This document shows, piece after piece, positions 50,486 to 59,481 of a stretch of DNA of 64,000 nt; positions within the stretch are counted from its first letter, which is position 1; each line of letters begins with the position of its first letter. Position numbers and translations under genes: made by a program. Source of the stretch: Escherichia coli (lineage in GTDB: Bacteria; Pseudomonadota; Gammaproteobacteria; Enterobacterales; Enterobacteriaceae). The notes below the pieces were generated by a model. It searched no databases, was not told the origin of the DNA, and saw nothing but the letters and a program-made list of their open reading frames with translations. The stretch lies in NCBI RefSeq assembly GCF_036507355.1, contig NZ_AP027877.1. One strand, 5' to 3'.

Positions 50486-50502
50486 TTCAATGTTCTGAAT
50501 CT
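50486..50502. repeat. attR-like direct repeat (tcaatgttctgaatctg) of the integrative element
   Basis: 16 of 17 bases identical to 58622..58638 at the other end of the integrase-containing block. Confidence 0.7.
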
Positions 50503-50647
50503 GAATATTGAATTGTGGGTTATATGTATTGATATTTAAATGATTTTTGTTTTTCTGGTTTTGCTTGTGTACACGTAGGGGTACATGGATTTACAGGGAT
50601 TACAATTTTTATTGTGTGATTTATGACCAATTGTAATTTTGTGTAAG

Positions 50648-50929
50648 TCACGCCGTGATCTTCATTAAAACATTATCAACAAAAACCCATTCGGGGTGAG
50701 AGGTGGGCGCTGGCATTTTTGTTTTACGTTCGCGCCGTGGATCTGCGATTTCAAAGGCTGGCGTCATAAATCTGAAAGTCATTGCTTCCGCATAAGCCTG
50801 GCTGAATCCATAACGACGCAGCTCATGAATTAACGCCTCATCATCCAGATCCAGCGCGTAAACCTCTTCAGCAATAGCGGCGGCAATCTGTAGGCGGGTG
50901 CTGTTGGGCAAGCGGTTCACATTCAGCAT
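50648..50929 (-). CDS. Hypothetical protein (cargo of integrative element)
   Basis: ORF 50648..50941; second ATG (MLNVNRLPNST) has a GGAG RBS; no recognisable domain. Confidence 0.45.
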   Translation of the reverse strand: MLNVNRLPNSTRLQIAAAIAEEVYALDLDDEALIHELRRYGFSQAYAEAMTFRFMTPAFEIADPRRERKTKMPAPTSHPEWVFVDNVLMKITA

Positions 50930-50944
50930 GACAGACTCCATCAG

Positions 50945-50975
50945 GTCAAAAGAAACCGCCTTTCGGCGGCGCTTG
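50945..50975 (-). terminator. Putative rho-independent terminator downstream of the 134-aa/62-aa gene pair
   Basis: On the minus strand: stem GCCGCCG-AAA-GGCGG followed by TTTCTTTTG. Confidence 0.45.
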
Positions 50976-51048
50976 GCAGTGAGGGAAGGTTACGGGCAGA
51001 TAAGCATCAGGTAGCAGTACAGCATCACACAGAGCGCATATGCCTCAG

Positions 51049-51237
51049 TCATGATTTCCCCGCATAGAAGTTCTGGTTAAATAGCTTCTGACTCATCCCC
51101 GTACTATCCGCTTTGCCACCAGAATAAAAAGCCTTGTTAAAGTCAGATTGACTGCTACCACTGAAGGAAGTGCCAGTTTTGCCCTCTCGCGCTTCACGCG
51201 CTTTTCTCAATGCCTCGATTACGGATGCTTTACTCAT
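51049..51237 (-). CDS. Hypothetical 62-aa Ser/Gly-rich protein, translationally coupled to the upstream gene
   Basis: Start ATG overlaps the stop of the 134-aa ORF (ATGA); internal FNKAFYSGG / FNQNFYAGK repeats. Confidence 0.5.
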   Translation of the reverse strand: MSKASVIEALRKAREAREGKTGTSFSGSSQSDFNKAFYSGGKADSTGMSQKLFNQNFYAGKS

Positions 51238-51638
51238 CGTGCAAACCCTCGTGTAATACTGGTGTAACCTCGACCGGCTGCTTTGCTCAGTTCATTCAGG
51301 CCATTGGTCACAACCTTCGATTCCCAACCGATAACCCCATTAATAGAGCGCGGCAAAGGGAAGTTCCCGTCCCTGCTCCATTCCTTCAATTTGGCAGTGG
51401 TGAGTGCTTTGCCATATTGGCGCTGATATCTCACACAAACATCATCAGGGCTTACCAGACCCACTTTGCTGAGGCCCAACGGCGAGTGAGAGTATTCGAT
51501 TTGCTTTACATACCAACCATCACCAACGGCGTACAGACCGGATGGATGGCGCTTACACTCATCAGCTTGGCGGCGTTGTTCTGCTGCTTGCTTTTGTTCA
51601 ATCAAAATTGTTTCTAACTCAGTCATTGGTGTCACCAT
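51234..51638 (-). CDS. Hypothetical 134-aa protein, first gene of a coupled two-gene module
   Basis: ORF with no recognisable domain; operator-like repeats directly upstream. Confidence 0.5.
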   Translation of the reverse strand: MVTPMTELETILIEQKQAAEQRRQADECKRHPSGLYAVGDGWYVKQIEYSHSPLGLSKVGLVSPDDVCVRYQRQYGKALTTAKLKEWSRDGNFPLPRSINGVIGWESKVVTNGLNELSKAAGRGYTSITRGFAR

Positions 51639-51643
51639 TAAAA

Positions 51644-56995: not shown

Positions 56996-57049
56996 TTTTC
57001 ACCCTGCCTGTCTTTTATTTGTTCGATTGATGTTCGGGCCAGAAATTTT

Positions 57050-57158
57050 TGTCCCGTCCTGTCCCGTCTTTTGTCCCGGTTTTGTCCCATAACCATTCTT
57101 GTAACCAGCTGTATTTATTGAGTCTTTACAAAACGGGACAAACGGGACAGATGGGACA
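57050..57158. repeat. Iteron module 2: four direct TGTCCC repeats, spacer, three inverted GGGACA repeats; paralogue of module 1
   Basis: TGTCCC at 57050, 57060, 57072, 57083; GGGACA at 57135, 57144, 57153; same architecture as 52557..52666. Confidence 0.6.
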
Positions 57159-57181
57159 AGCAAAAAAACAATATTGAAAAT

Positions 57182-58441
57182 CTATCTGGCTTGCCTCAGT
57201 GGTGTAACGTTGTACTCTTCGCCCCGTTCAAGCGCTTCCATCAGGTTGCCCAGCATGGCCAGCGCTTCCCGCCGTTCGTTTAAATATTGGTGACGGTTGT
57301 AGATGCCTTCGACGCCTTTAATGCGGTGATTAAGGCAACGTTCGGCAACGATAGGATCAACGCCCAGCGCTCCTAAGTGGGTTCGGGCGGTGCGCCTAAG
57401 GTCGTGAATAGTGAAGTTAGGTACGCCCGGCATTGCCTGCTTAACCTTCGCCAGCGCAACGGGCAGGGTGCTTTCCTGAATGTGGGGGATCATGCGGTGC
57501 TGTTGTTTTCGCGCAGGTAGTACCCATTTGCTGTTACAGGAAAGAAGGCGCAATTCTTCAAGCCATTCGATAGCCTGCTTTGGCAGCGGAATATCAATCC
57601 CGTCGCCCGTCTTTGTACGCTCGCCCGGCAAGTACCAAATGCCATTGGCTAAATCGAACTCGCTCCAGCGTGCGGCGCATAGCTCCATCTTTCTCACGCA
57701 AGTGACCAGCAGCAGCTTTATCGTCAATTCGTTCTCGCGGCTAAAGCCTTTCGCCATTCGCATGGCTTCAAAGAGTTGAACCAGTTCCGGCCTGGTTAAC
57801 CATCGTTCTCGAGATGTTTCCTTACCGCCCGCGTCACTTATATCAAAGGCGGCTGCGGGGTTAACCTCAATCATTCCCAGCTTGATCGCATGGTCAAAGA
57901 TGCGGCGTACCCATCGCAGGACGTCATTAGCAACGGATGGCGCACCACGTTTTAAGATGGCCTGAAGCAAGGCATCAATATCTCGGGGTTTGACGTCCTT
58001 AACCTTTTTCTGACCTATGCGAGGATTAATGTCTTTCGCCAGACGACGGCGGAGGATGTCGGGGTGTTTCCATGTACCCAGTACTTTCTTCTTAAAATAG
58101 TCTTCAGCTACTTCGGACACTGTTTTGTCATGCTGGTCGGCTTCCAACTGGGCTTTTAATGCGGCTTTTCGCTCCTGCTTCTCACCGGCAACGTCATACC
58201 CCAGGGAAACACGAGCAGCCAGCTCTCGGGTGATCTCCCGGGCTTTAGCCAGTGAGATAACGCCATACGCGCCAATTGTCATAACACGAGGCTTGCCAGC
58301 GAAGCGGTAGCGGAAACGCCATGATGGGGACGTGTCAGTAGTGCGATAGCGCAAATATAAACCGTTACCGTCCGATTTACCCTCGAACCTTGTTCCGGCC
58401 TTTATCCAGGCCTTGATCTGAATGTCTGTTAGCTTGCCCAT
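57182..58441 (-). CDS. Tyrosine site-specific integrase (P4-type)
   Basis: 419-aa ORF with N-terminal arm-binding-like domain and C-terminal catalytic residues (HDLRRT ... NHR ... Y), adjacent to the att repeat. Confidence 0.88.
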   Translation of the reverse strand: MGKLTDIQIKAWIKAGTRFEGKSDGNGLYLRYRTTDTSPSWRFRYRFAGKPRVMTIGAYGVISLAKAREITRELAARVSLGYDVAGEKQERKAALKAQLEADQHDKTVSEVAEDYFKKKVLGTWKHPDILRRRLAKDINPRIGQKKVKDVKPRDIDALLQAILKRGAPSVANDVLRWVRRIFDHAIKLGMIEVNPAAAFDISDAGGKETSRERWLTRPELVQLFEAMRMAKGFSRENELTIKLLLVTCVRKMELCAARWSEFDLANGIWYLPGERTKTGDGIDIPLPKQAIEWLEELRLLSCNSKWVLPARKQQHRMIPHIQESTLPVALAKVKQAMPGVPNFTIHDLRRTARTHLGALGVDPIVAERCLNHRIKGVEGIYNRHQYLNERREALAMLGNLMEALERGEEYNVTPLRQAR

Positions 58442-58555
58442 ATCACCTCATTGGTTGCGTACCCTATCTACTTAATGCCTCTGCCTCATAGGGACACTAT
58501 TGGGTACACGAGAAATATGCGCTTTTATGATGCTAACTGCAACTTTGTGATATGA

Positions 58556-58585
58556 AAAAAGCCCGTGATTAGCGGGCTTTGTAGG
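58556..58585 (-). terminator. Rho-independent terminator downstream of yicC, inside the element's int-att spacer
   Basis: On the minus strand GCCCGCTAATCACGGGC followed by TTTTTT. Confidence 0.6.
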
Positions 58586-58617
58586 TGGTGTGATTCTGTA
58601 TGATATGGGGTGATACG

Positions 58618-59481
58618 CTACTCAATATTCTGAATCTGCTCGCGCATCTGCTCAATCAACACTTTCAGCTCGATGGCGGAGTTTGTCACTTCGGCGTTGA
58701 TAGATTTCGACGCAAGAGTGTTCGACTCGCGGTTGAACTCCTGCATCATAAAGTCCAGACGACGACCAACGGCTTCTTTTTTCTTCAGAATGTTGTAGGT
58801 CTCTTTGACATGCGCTTCGAGGCGGTCCAGTTCTTCGGCAACGTCAATTCGTTGTGCCAGCAGAACCAACTCCTGCTCCAGACGGTTGTTTTCCAACTGC
58901 ACCTGAGCATCTTCCAGCTTCGCGACCAAGCGTTCACGCTGCCATTGCAGGATTTCCGGCATATGGGAGCGGACTTTGACCACTTCGGCGGTGACGCCTT
59001 CCAGACGCTGCTCAATCAACGCTTTCAGCGCCTGACCTTCGGTTTCGCGAGCGATGATAAAGTCATCCAGGGTGCCATCCAACGCTGCGAGAATTTCAGC
59101 GGCAATCGCGTCGAGATCTTGCTCCTGGGCCGCCATCACGCCCGGCCAGCGTAGAATATCAACCGGGTTGATTTCCCCTTCGTCACTCTGCATTTTTACC
59201 CAGTTCGCGGCAGTTACCAGCTGTTTAGCCAGTTTTTCGTTGAGGATCAGCTCACCTTGCGCGCTAACATCTGGCTCATAGCGCAGAGTACATTCCACTT
59301 TACCGCGCGTCAGGCGAGAACGAATACGCTCACGAACGACAGGTTCAAGGCTACGGAACTGCTCCGGCAGACGAAAGTAAGTTTCCAGATAACGCTGGTT
59401 TACCGAGCGCATTTCCCAGGTTGCGCTCCCCCATTCACCCTTGATTTCACGCCGGGCGTAGGCGGTCATACTGCGGATCAT
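58618..59481 (-). CDS. yicC: YicC-family stress-induced protein
   Basis: 287-aa ORF MIRSMTAYARREIKGEWGSATWEMRSVNQRYLE. Confidence 0.88.
   Translation of the reverse strand: MIRSMTAYARREIKGEWGSATWEMRSVNQRYLETYFRLPEQFRSLEPVVRERIRSRLTRGKVECTLRYEPDVSAQGELILNEKLAKQLVTAANWVKMQSDEGEINPVDILRWPGVMAAQEQDLDAIAAEILAALDGTLDDFIIARETEGQALKALIEQRLEGVTAEVVKVRSHMPEILQWQRERLVAKLEDAQVQLENNRLEQELVLLAQRIDVAEELDRLEAHVKETYNILKKKEAVGRRLDFMMQEFNRESNTLASKSINAEVTNSAIELKVLIEQMREQIQNIE
58622..58638. repeat. attL-like direct repeat (tcaatattctgaatctg) overlapping the yicC 3' end
   Basis: Matches 50486..50502 with one mismatch; lies in the last codons of yicC. Confidence 0.7.

What the first reader, a model, noticed from the sequence alone, without database searches (positions are those of the whole stretch)
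50486..58638. 8.1 kb P4/PICI-like integrative element inserted into the 3' end of yicC
A P4-type integrase (57182..58441) lies next to a 17-bp sequence (58622..58638) that is repeated with one mismatch at 50486..50502, bracketing int, a 283-aa HTH protein, alpA, a small coupled gene, a toprim primase, a DUF927 P-loop helicase and four cargo ORFs. One repeat copy overlaps the last codons of yicC, so the element appears to have integrated into the gene end and rebuilt it. In K-12 dinD sits next to yicC (from memory), so this is strain-specific. No capsid-remodelling or packaging genes are seen, so it may be a minimal or decayed satellite. Elements of this kind commonly carry anti-phage cargo.
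Basis: partly seen in the sequence, partly recalled or inferred. Interest (0 to 1): 0.7.

Follow-up and report, generated by a model that had tools for sequence, protein, structure and literature searches.

The report
Small replicating island in yicC's end
An 8.1-kb mobile island carrying its own integrase, regulators and DNA-replication machinery sits in the last codons of the housekeeping gene yicC; it is a real, rare and intact element of a familiar general type, probably a minimal phage satellite, but how it moves between cells is not known.

Summary
A 20-bp core, TAYTCAATRTTCTGAATCTG, occurs at 50484-50503 and 58619-58638. More than 5,000 of 5,426 complete E. coli genomes have the uninterrupted yicC-dinD site. 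About 35 carry a related insert, and none is identical to this one.

The 8,135-bp element supplies yicC with a new stop codon (TAA to TAG) and a new terminator. All its genes read one way: a P4-type integrase, a 283-aa MerR-HTH protein, AlpA, a coupled 153-aa protein, a toprim primase (36% identical to the P4 alpha primase domain) and a DUF927 helicase related to SaPI Rep and SCCmec Cch.

New here: two GGGACA iteron clusters 4.5 kb apart. One lies directly 3' of the helicase, as in a PICI origin. The other lies upstream of the operon, so the pair resembles P4 crr and ori.

Only one ORF, a 151-aa secreted protein, sits in a variable slot. The other three "cargo" ORFs are conserved in every variant and are under purifying selection.

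There are no hits to known defence, packaging, cos, relaxase or oriT sequences.

It fits no defined family fully (PICI, PICMI, P4-like, yicC MGIs). The best reading is a minimal PICI/PICMI-like satellite. A conjugatively mobilised MGI-like island is the main rival.

The parts
50484..50503 (.). attL core copy (TATTCAATGTTCTGAATCTG), on the dinD side, non-coding
   Evidence: Alignment with the empty site and with J6; repeat family D1; polymorphic among copies.
50562..50586 (+). Candidate integrase arm-type sites: GTACAC-N5-GGGTACAT, two GTACA units 11 bp apart
   Evidence: Invariant in all six aligned copies, including LR-06 where the flanks have diverged. GGGTACR also occurs at 58458-58464(-) and 58502-58508(+) in the arm next to int. 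Their function is inferred.
50648..50929 (-). t97: conserved 93-aa core protein (97 aa from the upstream ATG), function unknown
   Evidence: 100% identical in J6, PI24, CM2010, ET881 and the alternative-replicase copies. The exact protein is recorded in 3,802 blocks of the assembly collection. dN/dS 0.15. No family hit. Only 14 clusters of relatives.
51049..51237 (-). t62: conserved 62-aa core protein, translationally coupled to t134 by a 4-nt overlap
   Evidence: dN/dS 0.21.
51234..51638 (-). t134: conserved core protein; its C-terminal half resembles an AlpA/excisionase-type HTH
   Evidence: Present in all variants. hhalign to the element's own AlpA gives E 4e-4, probability 34%. The AF2 model is weak overall, but residues 61-100 form strand-helix-helix-strand. 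Invariant motif W..GNFPLPRS.NGV.GW. No Pfam hit.
51645..51704 (-). Promoter region of the t134-t62-t97 operon: two 30-bp direct repeats with GTAC half-sites around a TGGTATAAT extended -10
   Evidence: Repeat family D6; sequence; conserved block in alignment A2. Promoter and operator roles are inferred.
51745..51790 (+). Hairpin plus T-run on the strand opposite to the genes (candidate terminator of an antisense RNA)
   Evidence: Three sequence types among the variants keep a stem followed by a T-run. The fold is -19 to -26 kcal/mol on the + strand against -8 to -20 on the - strand. No conserved + strand ORF.
52042..52497 (-). c151: the only true variable-slot gene; a small secreted protein (signal peptide ...ATATVHA|G, two Cys)
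   Evidence: 99% identical in CM2010 and 09A22; 53% homologue in J6, followed there by a TM2 protein; absent in PI24. Kluyvera carries another small signal-peptide protein in the same slot. No PADLOC, PHROG, Pfam or PDB hit. Seven representatives in 1.84 billion proteins.
52557..52666 (.). Iteron cluster A, the candidate origin of replication: GGGACA, 3x TGTCCC, 48-nt AT-rich spacer, 3x GGGACA (read on the - strand)
   Evidence: It lies directly 3' of the helicase gene. The hexamers are conserved while the spacers differ. A different iteron set (GTCCRTCAC) replaces it when the replicase is replaced. The layout matches that described for PICI origins.
52730..52753 (-). Terminator-like hairpin after the DUF927 gene
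52759..54465 (-). DUF927 helicase / putative replication initiator (568 aa from the ATGA-coupled start)
   Evidence: Pfam DUF927 1.8e-75. PDB 5dgk (SCCmec Cch) 4.5e-12 and 8tch (SaPI protein) 4e-11. NCBIfam Cch1 4e-19, below cutoff. ATGA overlap with the toprim gene.
54462..55388 (-). Toprim primase (289 aa as annotated in relatives)
   Evidence: phrog_2249 DNA primase 1e-52. Toprim_3 in precomputed Pfam. 36% identity to P4 alpha residues 132-293, E 3e-22.
55399..55860 (-). p153: 153-aa protein coupled to alpA by an ATGA overlap; possible winged helix plus coiled coil
   Evidence: Found only with the toprim+DUF927 module. AF2 pLDDT 57 with helix-helix-helix-strand-strand topology and a long helix. 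No family hit.
55857..56030 (-). alpA (57 aa), AlpA/Vis-type regulator or excision factor
   Evidence: phrog_66 8e-10; PF05930 in precomputed Pfam; alleles differ widely among copies.
56113..56150 (.). Perfect 19-bp tandem repeat at the stop codon of the 283-aa gene, upstream of alpA
   Evidence: Repeat family D13. Present in all six 283-aa-type copies examined and absent from the two copies checked that carry the ~200-aa allele.
56144..56995 (-). p283: first gene of the regulatory/replication operon; N-terminal MerR-type HTH, the rest unknown
   Evidence: Pfam MerR i-E 5e-4, residues 19-43. Only four clusters of relatives in 5.8 billion proteins. Other copies carry unrelated 179-204-aa genes in this position.
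57050..57158 (.). Iteron cluster B: 3x TGTCCC, 46-nt spacer, 4x GGGACA, between int and the 283-aa gene
   Evidence: A 25-nt perfect inverted match to cluster A (I1). It explains the spurious miRNA-precursor hit on both strands.
57182..58441 (-). P4-type tyrosine integrase (419 aa)
   Evidence: phrog_1 1e-71. Arm-DNA-bind_3 + Phage_int_M + Phage_integrase. 26% identity to P4 Int, E 5e-22.
58558..58580 (-). Element-borne intrinsic terminator that now follows yicC
   Evidence: sequence. The original yicC terminator is left on the far side at about 50420-50452.
58619..58638 (.). attR core copy (TACTCAATATTCTGAATCTG), which is the last six codons of yicC plus two bases of its stop
   Evidence: Base 58618, the third base of the TAG stop, comes from the element.

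Best explanation
This is an intact 8,135-bp site-specific integrative island. It can probably replicate on its own once excised, and it is most likely a minimal phage satellite of the PICI/PICMI kind.

Shown:
- It is inserted by recombination between a 20-bp core and the end of yicC.
- It restores the yicC stop codon and supplies a terminator.
- Its genes are all co-directional, intact and under purifying selection.
- The family is modular and occurs in at least three genera.

Inferred:
- A signal, most likely from an infecting or induced helper phage, turns on the p283-alpA-p153-primase-helicase operon.
- AlpA, with Int, drives excision.
- The DUF927 helicase, perhaps with p153, binds the GGGACA iterons and melts the AT-rich spacer directly 3' of its gene. 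The toprim primase then primes synthesis.
- The second iteron cluster, 4.5 kb away, acts like P4 crr relative to ori, or doubles as an operator of the operon.
- The amplified DNA is carried to new cells in helper-made particles without capsid remodelling.
- The conserved t134-t62-t97 operon, with its own repeat-flanked promoter and an opposing terminator, provides the helper interface or maintenance control.
- The single variable slot after the origin carries small secreted or membrane proteins that may act at the cell envelope.
For: Insertion and boundaries.

Rarity and family: about 35 of 5,426 E. coli genomes. Kluyvera cryocrescens (also at yicC) and Shimwellia pseudoproteus carry copies with 91-95% core protein identity. 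The same backbone sits with an unrelated integrase at another site in ET358.

Mosaicism: this copy has the int-p283-alpA part of the J6/PI24 type and the c151 plus trio part of the CM2010 type.

Purifying selection: dN/dS 0.06-0.21.

Replication module:
- Toprim primase homologous to the P4 alpha primase domain.
- DUF927 helicase homologous to SaPI and SCCmec helicases.
- ATGA coupling between genes.

Origin:
- 14 of the 28 GGGACA hexamers in 64 kb fall in two 110-bp clusters.
- Both clusters are present in all 14 DUF927 copies that cover both positions.
- Cluster A is swapped for different iterons together with the replicase.
- One alternative-replicase copy has lost cluster B.
- The layout equals the PICI origin description, and the two-site layout equals P4 crr/ori as annotated in NC_001609.

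Phage links:
- AlpA and a P4-type Int.
- Unidirectional gene order as in Gram-negative PICIs.
- The t134-t62 pair also occurs on 13-14-kb replicons with tape-measure-like and Dit-like tail genes and DUF5681.
- No LexA box inside the element, as expected for helper-induced rather than SOS-induced elements.
Against: - No helper phage, cos or pac site, small terminase, or capsid or packaging-redirection gene was found.
- No relative was found on true viral contigs. The two IMG/VR hits are chromosomal yicC loci.
- The predicted circular junction was not found in viral or metagenome contigs, and no circular contig was seen.
- Cluster B persists in five of six copies that lack the DUF927 module, so it may not be a replicase site.
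- The structural models of t134 and p153 are of low confidence.
- Islands known to use the yicC 3' end and to carry DUF927 are mobilised by conjugation, not by phages.
Confidence: 0.5

Rival explanations
1. It is a mobilisable genomic island of the MGI type. It stays quiescent in yicC until a conjugative element (an SXT/R391 ICE, an IncA/C plasmid or another) activates its HTH/RDF operon. It then excises and is transferred through the helper's type IV secretion system from an oriT that mimics the helper's. The DUF927 module only stabilises or amplifies the excised circle.
For: - MGIVflInd1, MGIVmi1 and relatives integrate in the 3' end of yicC, including in E. coli. They encode a tyrosine integrase, an HTH recombination directionality factor and a conserved DUF927 protein, and some encode no conjugation protein at all.
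- The element here has the same target gene end, an HTH factor and a DUF927 protein.
- Its spread across genera fits conjugation as well as it fits transduction.
Against: - No MobI, relaxase or Tra/Trb homologue in Pfam, NCBIfam or PHROGs.
- No AcaCD-like box TGYCC-N5-GGRCA.
- No nucleotide similarity to any of 72,556 plasmids apart from integrase genes and t134.
- At 8 kb it is half the size of the smallest MGI, and it has no restriction or BREX cargo.
- It has a toprim primase and a PICI-type iteron origin that the papers read here do not report for MGIs.
- In MGIVchHai6, deletion of the DUF927 gene did not affect excision, mobilisation or integration, whereas here the DUF927 gene is conserved together with its iterons.
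Confidence: 0.2
2. It is an integrative plasmid-like island with no dedicated transfer route. It excises and replicates at low frequency and spreads only by generalised transduction, transformation or recombination of flanking DNA. It persists because it is cheap to carry or because its envelope proteins help the host.
For: No transfer function of any kind could be recognised. The element is rare, 0.6% of complete E. coli genomes. The variants look like products of homologous recombination between copies at the same locus.
Against: - Nearly the same element occupies yicC in Kluyvera, where the yicC protein is only 93% identical, and it occurs in Shimwellia. Transfer by flanking homology is therefore unlikely.
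- The same backbone has acquired another integrase and another site.
- Strong purifying selection on the integrase and on the three small core genes argues for an active life cycle.
Confidence: 0.2
3. It is a P4-like satellite that has lost its capsid-sizing and late-control genes (sid, delta, psu, epsilon, cos) and is now a defective remnant.
For: A P4-type integrase, a Vis/AlpA homologue, a primase domain 36% identical to that of alpha, and a two-site iteron layout like crr/ori.
Against: - No homologue of sid, delta, psu or epsilon, and no P2-type cos.
- The helicase is of a different family from that of alpha.
- Int is only 26% identical to P4 Int.
- All variants in three genera share the same compact gene set under purifying selection. 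That is not what decay produces.
Confidence: 0.05

Closest known systems
Gram-negative PICIs (e.g. EcCICFT073; Fillol-Salom et al. 2018, PMC6092414)
   Same: An integrase at one end. All genes are transcribed in one direction. AlpA regulator, primase plus replication helicase, and an origin made of two iteron sets flanking an AT-rich stretch directly 3' of the replication gene. No structural or lytic genes. No LexA box in the element, which would fit the SOS-independent, helper-dependent alpA induction described for EcCICFT073 (not tested here).
   Different: 8.1 kb instead of 12-15 kb. No terS, rpp, ppi or capsid-morphogenesis homologue and no cos site. A second iteron cluster upstream of the operon. 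A conserved three-gene operon with no PICI counterpart. SatelliteFinder would call it only "Type C" (int + alpA + primase), a class its authors left unclassified.
PICMIs of Vibrionaceae (Barcia-Cruz et al. 2024, PMC10803314)
   Same: Minimal size (6-8 kb). An int, alpA, small unknown gene and primase core. No capsid-remodelling genes. A short, fast-changing accessory slot just after the replication gene. Flanked by a repeat of about 17-20 bp at the end of a housekeeping gene.
   Different: Host family and site differ (next to fis versus yicC). The primase type differs (DUF3987/DUF5906 versus toprim + DUF927; only the alternative-replicase variants of this family carry DUF5906). There is no gene overlapping int. 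Three extra conserved genes are present. Packaging as concatemers by a virulent helper has not been tested here.
Satellite phage P4 (NC_001609)
   Same: Integrase family, Vis/AlpA-type factor and homologous toprim primase domain. The replication operon is bracketed by two clusters of the same short iteron in mixed orientation, about 4.5-5 kb apart, one of them directly 3' of the replicase gene.
   Different: No sid, delta, psu, epsilon, cI RNA or cos. Primase and helicase are separate proteins, and the helicase belongs to another family. The iteron is GGGACA rather than TGTTCACC. The order of int relative to the operon differs.
Mobilisable genomic islands at yicC (MGIVflInd1, MGIVmi1, MGIVchHai6-like; PMC4344509, PMC4207636, PMC7449626)
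   Same: The same target (3' end of yicC), a tyrosine integrase, an HTH excision or regulatory factor and a DUF927 protein in one operon. Some members encode no conjugation proteins.
   Different: MGIs are 16-33 kb. They carry an oriT mimic and usually mobI, have SetCD or AcaCD boxes, and carry large restriction or BREX cargo. None of these was found here. The papers read here do not report a toprim primase or an iteron origin for MGIs.
SaPI Rep and SCCmec Cch replication helicases
   Same: The DUF927 helicase matches both solved structures by sequence (5dgk, 8tch). [quoted passage not shown]
   Different: The host phylum, integrase type and the rest of the gene content differ.

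Membership tests
PICI (criteria of Fillol-Salom et al. 2018) | Integrase, master regulator (AlpA or MerR in Gram-negatives) and replication module in a conserved, unidirectional order | tested here: met
   int, MerR-HTH p283, alpA, toprim and DUF927 are all on the minus strand; criteria.
PICI (criteria of Fillol-Salom et al. 2018) | Origin directly 3' of the replication gene, made of two iteron sets flanking an AT-rich region | tested here: met
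   Cluster A at 52557-52666; described layout. Function not assayed.
PICI (criteria of Fillol-Salom et al. 2018) | No phage structural or lytic genes | tested here: met
   No such PHROG, Pfam or NCBIfam hit for any ORF.
PICI (criteria of Fillol-Salom et al. 2018) | Size about 12-15 kb | tested here: not met
   8,135 bp. Relatives are about 6.4-9 kb.
PICI (criteria of Fillol-Salom et al. 2018) | Attachment site never used by prophages | tested here: inconclusive
   In the rows inspected, yicC is either empty or holds this family. The rows with separate yicC and dinD matches that were opened showed dinD loss or decay, not prophages. Not every genome was inspected.
PICI (criteria of Fillol-Salom et al. 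2018) | Packaging or interference genes (terS, ppi, rpp, capsid morphogenesis) or a helper-type cos site | tested here: not met
   No hits. No lambda or P2 cos. No DNA similarity to 50,697 phage records for 50504-52760.
PICI (criteria of Fillol-Salom et al. 2018) | Induction by a helper phage and packaging into phage particles | not testable with these tools
   Needs experiments. No virion-derived contig was found.
PICMI (Barcia-Cruz et al. 2024) | Co-located int, alpA and primase | tested here: met
   However, the published model uses DUF3987/DUF5906 primases, and this copy has toprim + DUF927.
PICMI (Barcia-Cruz et al. 2024) | Integration next to fis; Vibrionaceae host | tested here: not met
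   Integrated in yicC of an Escherichia-like genome.
P4-like satellites (SatelliteFinder: int, psu, delta, sid, alpA, epsilon, alpha) | At least five of the seven core components | tested here: not met
   Only int, alpA and a primase domain are present. There are no psu, delta, sid or epsilon hits. Definition.
P4-like satellites (SatelliteFinder: int, psu, delta, sid, alpha) | P2-type cos site | tested here: not met
   No match to the 19-nt P2 or 186 cos at up to 3 mismatches.
MGIs targeting yicC (MGIVflInd1 / MGIVmi1 type) | Integration in the 3' end of yicC by a tyrosine integrase, with an HTH RDF and a DUF927 gene | tested here: met
   family description. Orthology of the integrases was not tested.
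MGIs targeting yicC (MGIVflInd1 / MGIVmi1 type) | mobI-like gene and/or an oriT related to that of the helper | tested here: inconclusive
   No MobI-like hit and no similarity to any PLSDB plasmid, which covers IncA/C oriT. The SXT/R391 oriT could not be compared.
MGIs targeting yicC (MGIVflInd1 / MGIVmi1 type) | AcaCD or SetCD box upstream of the RDF operon | tested here: inconclusive
   No AcaCD-like TGYCC-N5-GGRCA in the element (example sites). The SetCD motif was not available as text and was not tested.
PIME (Perta et al. 2026 preprint) | int, alpA, replicase plus trbJ/trbL-type conjugation genes | tested here: not met
   No Trb or Tra homologue; definition.

The most novel reading that the evidence does not exclude
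The yicC islands of Escherichia, Kluyvera and Shimwellia are an undescribed enterobacterial family of minimal phage satellites. They combine a PICI/SaPI-type helicase origin with a P4-like second iteron site. They are mobilised without any capsid or terminase gene of their own. Their only helper-interface module is the orphan t134-t62-t97 operon, which may be controlled by an antisense RNA. The single hotspot after the origin carries fast-evolving periplasmic or membrane proteins that exclude competing phages at the envelope.
Probability: 0.25. Interest if true: 0.6.

Novelty: new variant of a known kind. Interest (0 to 1): 0.4.

Why it matters
If it proves to be a satellite, it would extend the "minimalist" satellite design, so far shown only for marine Vibrio, to E. 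coli and its relatives. It would do so in a genetically tractable 8-kb element whose three conserved orphan genes must then contain the whole helper-hijacking function.

The paired iteron sites give a simple test bed for how a SaPI/SCCmec-type helicase uses a distant second binding site, a question so far studied in P4 (from my own recall of the P4 literature).

It also shows that the yicC 3' end is used by at least two lifestyles of island that share a DUF927 protein. This bears on how phage-mobilised and conjugation-mobilised islands exchange modules.

If it is none of this, it is one more small integrative island of modest interest.

Tried and rejected
- Rfam at permissive threshold. The only hit, a microRNA precursor model on both strands at 57049-57159, is the palindromic iteron cluster B and not an RNA family.
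- PADLOC on the ten element proteins and on six cargo proteins of variants. Only the AlpA HTH matched a small HTH defence component, and three hits at E of about 0.004-0.007 were treated as noise.
- Pfam on concatenated unknown proteins and on the t134 alignment found nothing beyond the MerR HTH. One homologue is labelled "PrtN family" in NCBI, but no profile confirmed this.
- PDB sequence searches for p283, t134 and c151 found nothing.
- AlphaFold models of t134 and p153 had pLDDT 53 and 57. That is too low for fold searches, so none were run.
- Searches for a circular form all failed. The predicted attP junction pattern is absent from viral and metagenome contigs. Short contigs carrying t97 relatives are chromosomal junctions.
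- A viral-contig search with the helicase found nothing. With the t134 profile it found only chromosomal yicC loci mislabelled as viral.
- A + strand 82-aa ORF (51542-51790) ending at the opposing terminator was rejected as a gene, because it is not conserved in the other sequence types. The 97-aa TTG ORF 52469-52762 was rejected because it lies over iteron cluster A.
- AlpA as the GGGACA-binding protein was rejected as unlikely. AlpA alleles fall to 20% identity while the hexamer stays the same.
- Int as the GGGACA binder was rejected, because ET358 has an unrelated integrase and the same clusters.
- dinD as the remnant of an older insert at the same site was not supported. No second core copy flanks it.
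- SOS control was rejected. The only LexA box is that of dinD.

Full report
**1. The observation**

The reported repeat exists. With the preceding TA and one more polymorphic base, the shared core is 20 bp: TAYTCAATRTTCTGAATCTG at 50484-50503 and 58619-58638.

Chance is not the issue, because the empty site exists. A 9-kb query across the region matched 5,424 of 5,426 complete E. coli genomes. In most of them only the two flanks matched, lying side by side with yicC and dinD adjacent.

Both window junctions were aligned with the empty site of strain NT1F34 and with a carrier strain, J6. The left junction follows the empty site up to ...CTGAATCTG and then diverges. The right junction joins the empty site from TACTCAAT... 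onward. The insert is 8,135 bp counting one core copy.

The two mismatches sit in the non-coding left copy. They vary among copies, and LR-06 and 09A22CPO026 have perfect repeats.

**2. Effect on yicC**

yicC (minus strand, 58618-59481, 287 aa) ends ...QIQNIE inside the right core copy. In empty sites the stop is TAA. Here it is TAG, and its last base (58618) is element DNA.

The original yicC terminator now lies beyond the element at about 50420-50452. A new hairpin with a T-run at 58558-58580 on the minus strand follows the rebuilt gene.

**3. Gene content**

All genes are on the minus strand.

| Gene | Coordinates | Evidence |
|---|---|---|
| Int | 57182-58441 | phrog_1; the three-domain architecture of P4-type integrases; 26% identical to P4 Int |
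| p283 | 56144-56995 | Only an N-terminal MerR-type HTH; four clusters of relatives in 5.8 billion proteins |
| AlpA | 55857-56030 | phrog_66, PF05930 |
| p153 | 55399-55860 | ATGA overlap with alpA |
| Toprim primase | 54462-55388 | 36% identical to residues 132-293 of P4 alpha |
| DUF927 protein | 52759-54465 | ATGA overlap with the toprim gene; Pfam DUF927 1.8e-75; matches the solved SCCmec Cch helicase and a SaPI protein; no BLASTP similarity to the helicase part of alpha |

**4. The "cargo"**

About 35 complete E. coli genomes carry a related insert, and none is identical to this one. Copies from J6, PI24, CM2010-0578/1, ET881, 09A22CPO026, LR-06 and ET358, several alternative-replicase strains, Kluyvera cryocrescens and Shimwellia pseudoproteus were compared. 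The family is modular:

- The gene after int is either p283 or an unrelated gene of 179-204 aa.
- alpA comes in alleles down to 20% identity.
- The replicase is either toprim+DUF927 (with p153) or Zn-ribbon primase + DUF5906/Pox_D5.
- ET358 has an unrelated integrase and sits between ubiV and yhbW.

Through all of this, the 134-, 62- and 97-aa genes stay in place at the far end. Against the LR-06 copy their dN/dS is 0.21 for t62 and 0.15 for t97 (dS is saturated for t134). The values are 0.06-0.08 for int, primase and helicase. These three genes are therefore core genes, and the element is not decayed.

Only one position varies by presence or absence, directly after the helicase and its iterons:

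- It is empty in PI24.
- It holds c151 here and in CM2010.
- It holds a 53%-identical homologue plus a TM2 membrane protein in J6.
- It holds three other small genes, including a DUF5681 protein, in ET881.
- It holds another small signal-peptide protein in Kluyvera.

No protein from this slot, here or in the variants, matches a known defence family. c151 has seven representative relatives among 1.84 billion proteins.

The window's copy is a mosaic. Its int-p283-alpA part is 100% identical in protein to PI24 (J6 differs only in p283, at 97%). Its c151 and trio part is 99-100% identical to CM2010.

**5. Iterons**

Half of the 28 GGGACA hexamers in the 64-kb window lie in two clusters of about 110 bp.

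- Cluster A (52557-52666) follows the helicase stop and a terminator-like hairpin. Read on the minus strand it is GGGACA, three TGTCCC, a 48-nt AT-rich spacer and three GGGACA.
- Cluster B (57050-57158), between int and p283, is three TGTCCC, a 46-nt spacer and four GGGACA.

The two clusters share a 25-nt perfect inverted match.

All 14 toprim+DUF927 copies whose sequence covers both positions have both clusters. In the 78%-identical LR-06 and ET358 copies the hexamers are kept while the spacers and flanks differ. In PI24 and ET881 the spacer of cluster A is the reverse complement of a CM2010-type cluster B spacer, so the two units exchange sequence.

Where the replicase is replaced, cluster A is replaced by a different repeat set, GTCCRTCAC, around AT-rich stretches. 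Cluster B is kept in five such copies and deleted in one.

AlpA is an unlikely binder, because its alleles diverge too far. Int is excluded by ET358.

The simplest reading is that cluster A is the origin cognate to the DUF927 module. [quoted passage not shown] Cluster B would then be a second site for the same protein.

The annotated P4 record shows the same plan. crr, with type 1 repeats in mixed orientation, lies directly 3' of alpha. ori, with the same repeats, lies upstream of the vis operon about 4.8 kb away.

Whether cluster B acts in replication, in control of the operon, or in both is open. Its persistence without DUF927 is the main unexplained point.

**6. Other cis features**

- GTACAC-N5-GGGTACAT, about 60-80 bp inside attL, is invariant even where its surroundings have diverged. 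GGGTACR recurs twice in the arm next to int. These are candidate arm-type integrase sites.
- The trio operon has a TGGTATAAT extended -10 set between two 30-bp repeats with GTAC half-sites.
- About 100 bp upstream of the trio's start codon, on the opposite strand, every sequence type keeps a stable hairpin followed by a T-run. The stems differ in sequence and are stronger on that strand. This suggests an antisense transcript over the 5' end of t134. No conserved ORF explains it.
- A perfect 19-bp tandem repeat sits at the p283 stop in all six p283-bearing copies examined.
- No LexA box lies inside the element.

**7. The unknown core proteins**

The C-terminal half of t134 aligns with the element's own AlpA by profile comparison (E 4e-4, probability 34%). 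In a weak AlphaFold model it forms a strand-helix-helix-strand unit. An invariant W..GNFPLPRS.NGV.GW motif fits an AlpA/excisionase-type DNA-binding domain. No Pfam model confirms this.

The t134-t62 pair also occurs on circular 13-14-kb replicons from Shigella and from metagenomes. These carry ParA, Arc, toprim and VapE replication genes, a small recombinase, DUF5681, and tape-measure-like and Dit-like tail genes. That is a link to phage-related elements, though an indirect one.

p153 models weakly as a winged helix followed by a long helix. t62 and t97 have no detectable relatives outside this family.

**8. How it moves**

Nothing in the element matches a terminase, capsid, cos, relaxase, MobI or Tra/Trb function. 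It shows no DNA similarity to 50,697 phage records over its right-hand 2.3 kb. Against 72,556 plasmids it matches only integrase genes and t134.

No circular junction or virion-derived copy was found.

It does move. Kluyvera cryocrescens carries it in its own yicC, with 93% YicC identity and 91-94% core identity. Shimwellia carries it too. These were the only two hits among 100,044 species representatives.

**9. Comparison with known families**

- **PICIs (criteria).** The organisation, regulator, replication module, origin layout and absence of structural genes are met. Size and packaging or interference genes are not met. Induction and packaging cannot be tested here.
- **SatelliteFinder.** It would score only int, alpA and primase, its "Type C". 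The authors say this class may be satellites, defective elements or other mobile elements.
- **PICMIs.** They share the minimal int-alpA-primase design and the accessory slot after the primase. They are defined by the fis site, by Vibrionaceae hosts and by other primase families.
- **P4-like satellites.** Psu, delta, sid, epsilon and cos are required, and all are absent.
- **MGIs.** Mobilisable genomic islands such as MGIVflInd1 and MGIVmi1 integrate in the 3' end of yicC, also in E. coli. They carry an HTH excision factor and a conserved DUF927 gene. They are mobilised by SXT/R391 ICEs or IncA/C plasmids through an oriT mimic, under SetCD or AcaCD control. Here no AcaCD-like box, no MobI and no plasmid-like oriT was found. 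The SXT oriT and the SetCD motif could not be tested.
- **PIMEs.** They require trbJ/trbL, which are absent.

The element therefore works like a PICI or PICMI in its integration, regulation and replication anatomy. It is a full member of none of the defined families.

**10. Verdict**

The element is an intact, rare, modular, horizontally mobile integrative island with its own replicon, inserted in and repairing the end of yicC.

The corrections are these:

- Three of the four "cargo" ORFs are core genes.
- The element is not decayed.
- No anti-phage cargo can be recognised.
- Phage-satellite status is the most likely but unproven reading, at about one in two.
- An MGI-like conjugative route and a passive integrative replicon are the rivals.

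The paired iteron sites, the orphan trio operon and the possible antisense RNA are the new anatomical points. My searches of the paper library found no description of this family.

I rate it a new variant of a known kind, of moderate interest.

Noticed in passing
window 48138 (ligB); 49747-49751 and 50042 (dinD): Relative to other E. coli, ligB has a 1-nt deletion. dinD has two 1-nt deletions, in or beside short C or G runs. Both genes are therefore frameshifted in this window. These could be real pseudogenes or homopolymer sequencing errors.
   Followed up: partly
L011 (Shigella flexneri plasmid NZ_CP055032.1, 13,291 bp), L012, L013: Circular replicons of 13-14 kb carry homologues of t134 and t62 next to a DUF5681 gene. 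They also carry ParA, Arc, toprim and VapE replication genes, a small tyrosine recombinase, and tape-measure-like and Dit-like tail genes. This looks like a small phage-related plasmid or satellite of an undescribed kind.
   Followed up: partly
window 51745-51790 (+ strand): A stable hairpin with a T-run lies on the strand opposite to all element genes. It is kept in three sequence types with different stems. It may end an antisense RNA covering the start of t134. No conserved ORF ends there.
   Followed up: partly
window 56113-56150: A perfect 19-bp tandem repeat (AAAGTGAAGACCTACTTTG twice on the minus strand) begins within the last codons of the 283-aa gene, spans its stop codon, and lies upstream of alpA. 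It is present in all six copies examined that carry the 283-aa allele and absent from the two checked copies with the ~200-aa allele. It may be an operator or a module-junction scar.
   Followed up: partly
L032 (CUVET17-1136) and L033 (JNE070796), yicG-yicC interval: dinD itself is variable. One strain lacks it entirely and another keeps only a fragment annotated as partial BRO and DnaD-like proteins. dinD has a Bro-N domain, so it may be an old phage-derived gene. No att-like repeat flanks it.
   Followed up: partly
window 50307-50322: A perfect LexA-box-like palindrome, CTGTGTTTATATACAG, lies upstream of dinD, about 165 bp from attL. It is the only such site near the element.
   Followed up: no
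L003 2287-2395 and L005 3801-3909 versus L004 6968-7065: In PI24 and ET881 the spacer of the iteron cluster after the helicase is the reverse complement of the spacer found in the int-proximal cluster of CM2010-type copies. The two clusters therefore exchange sequence, by gene conversion or by inversion of the 4.5-kb segment between them.
   Followed up: partly
L025 5437-5489: One alternative-replicase copy has only 51 bp between int and the next gene and has lost the int-proximal GGGACA cluster entirely. The other five alternative-replicase copies examined keep it.
   Followed up: no
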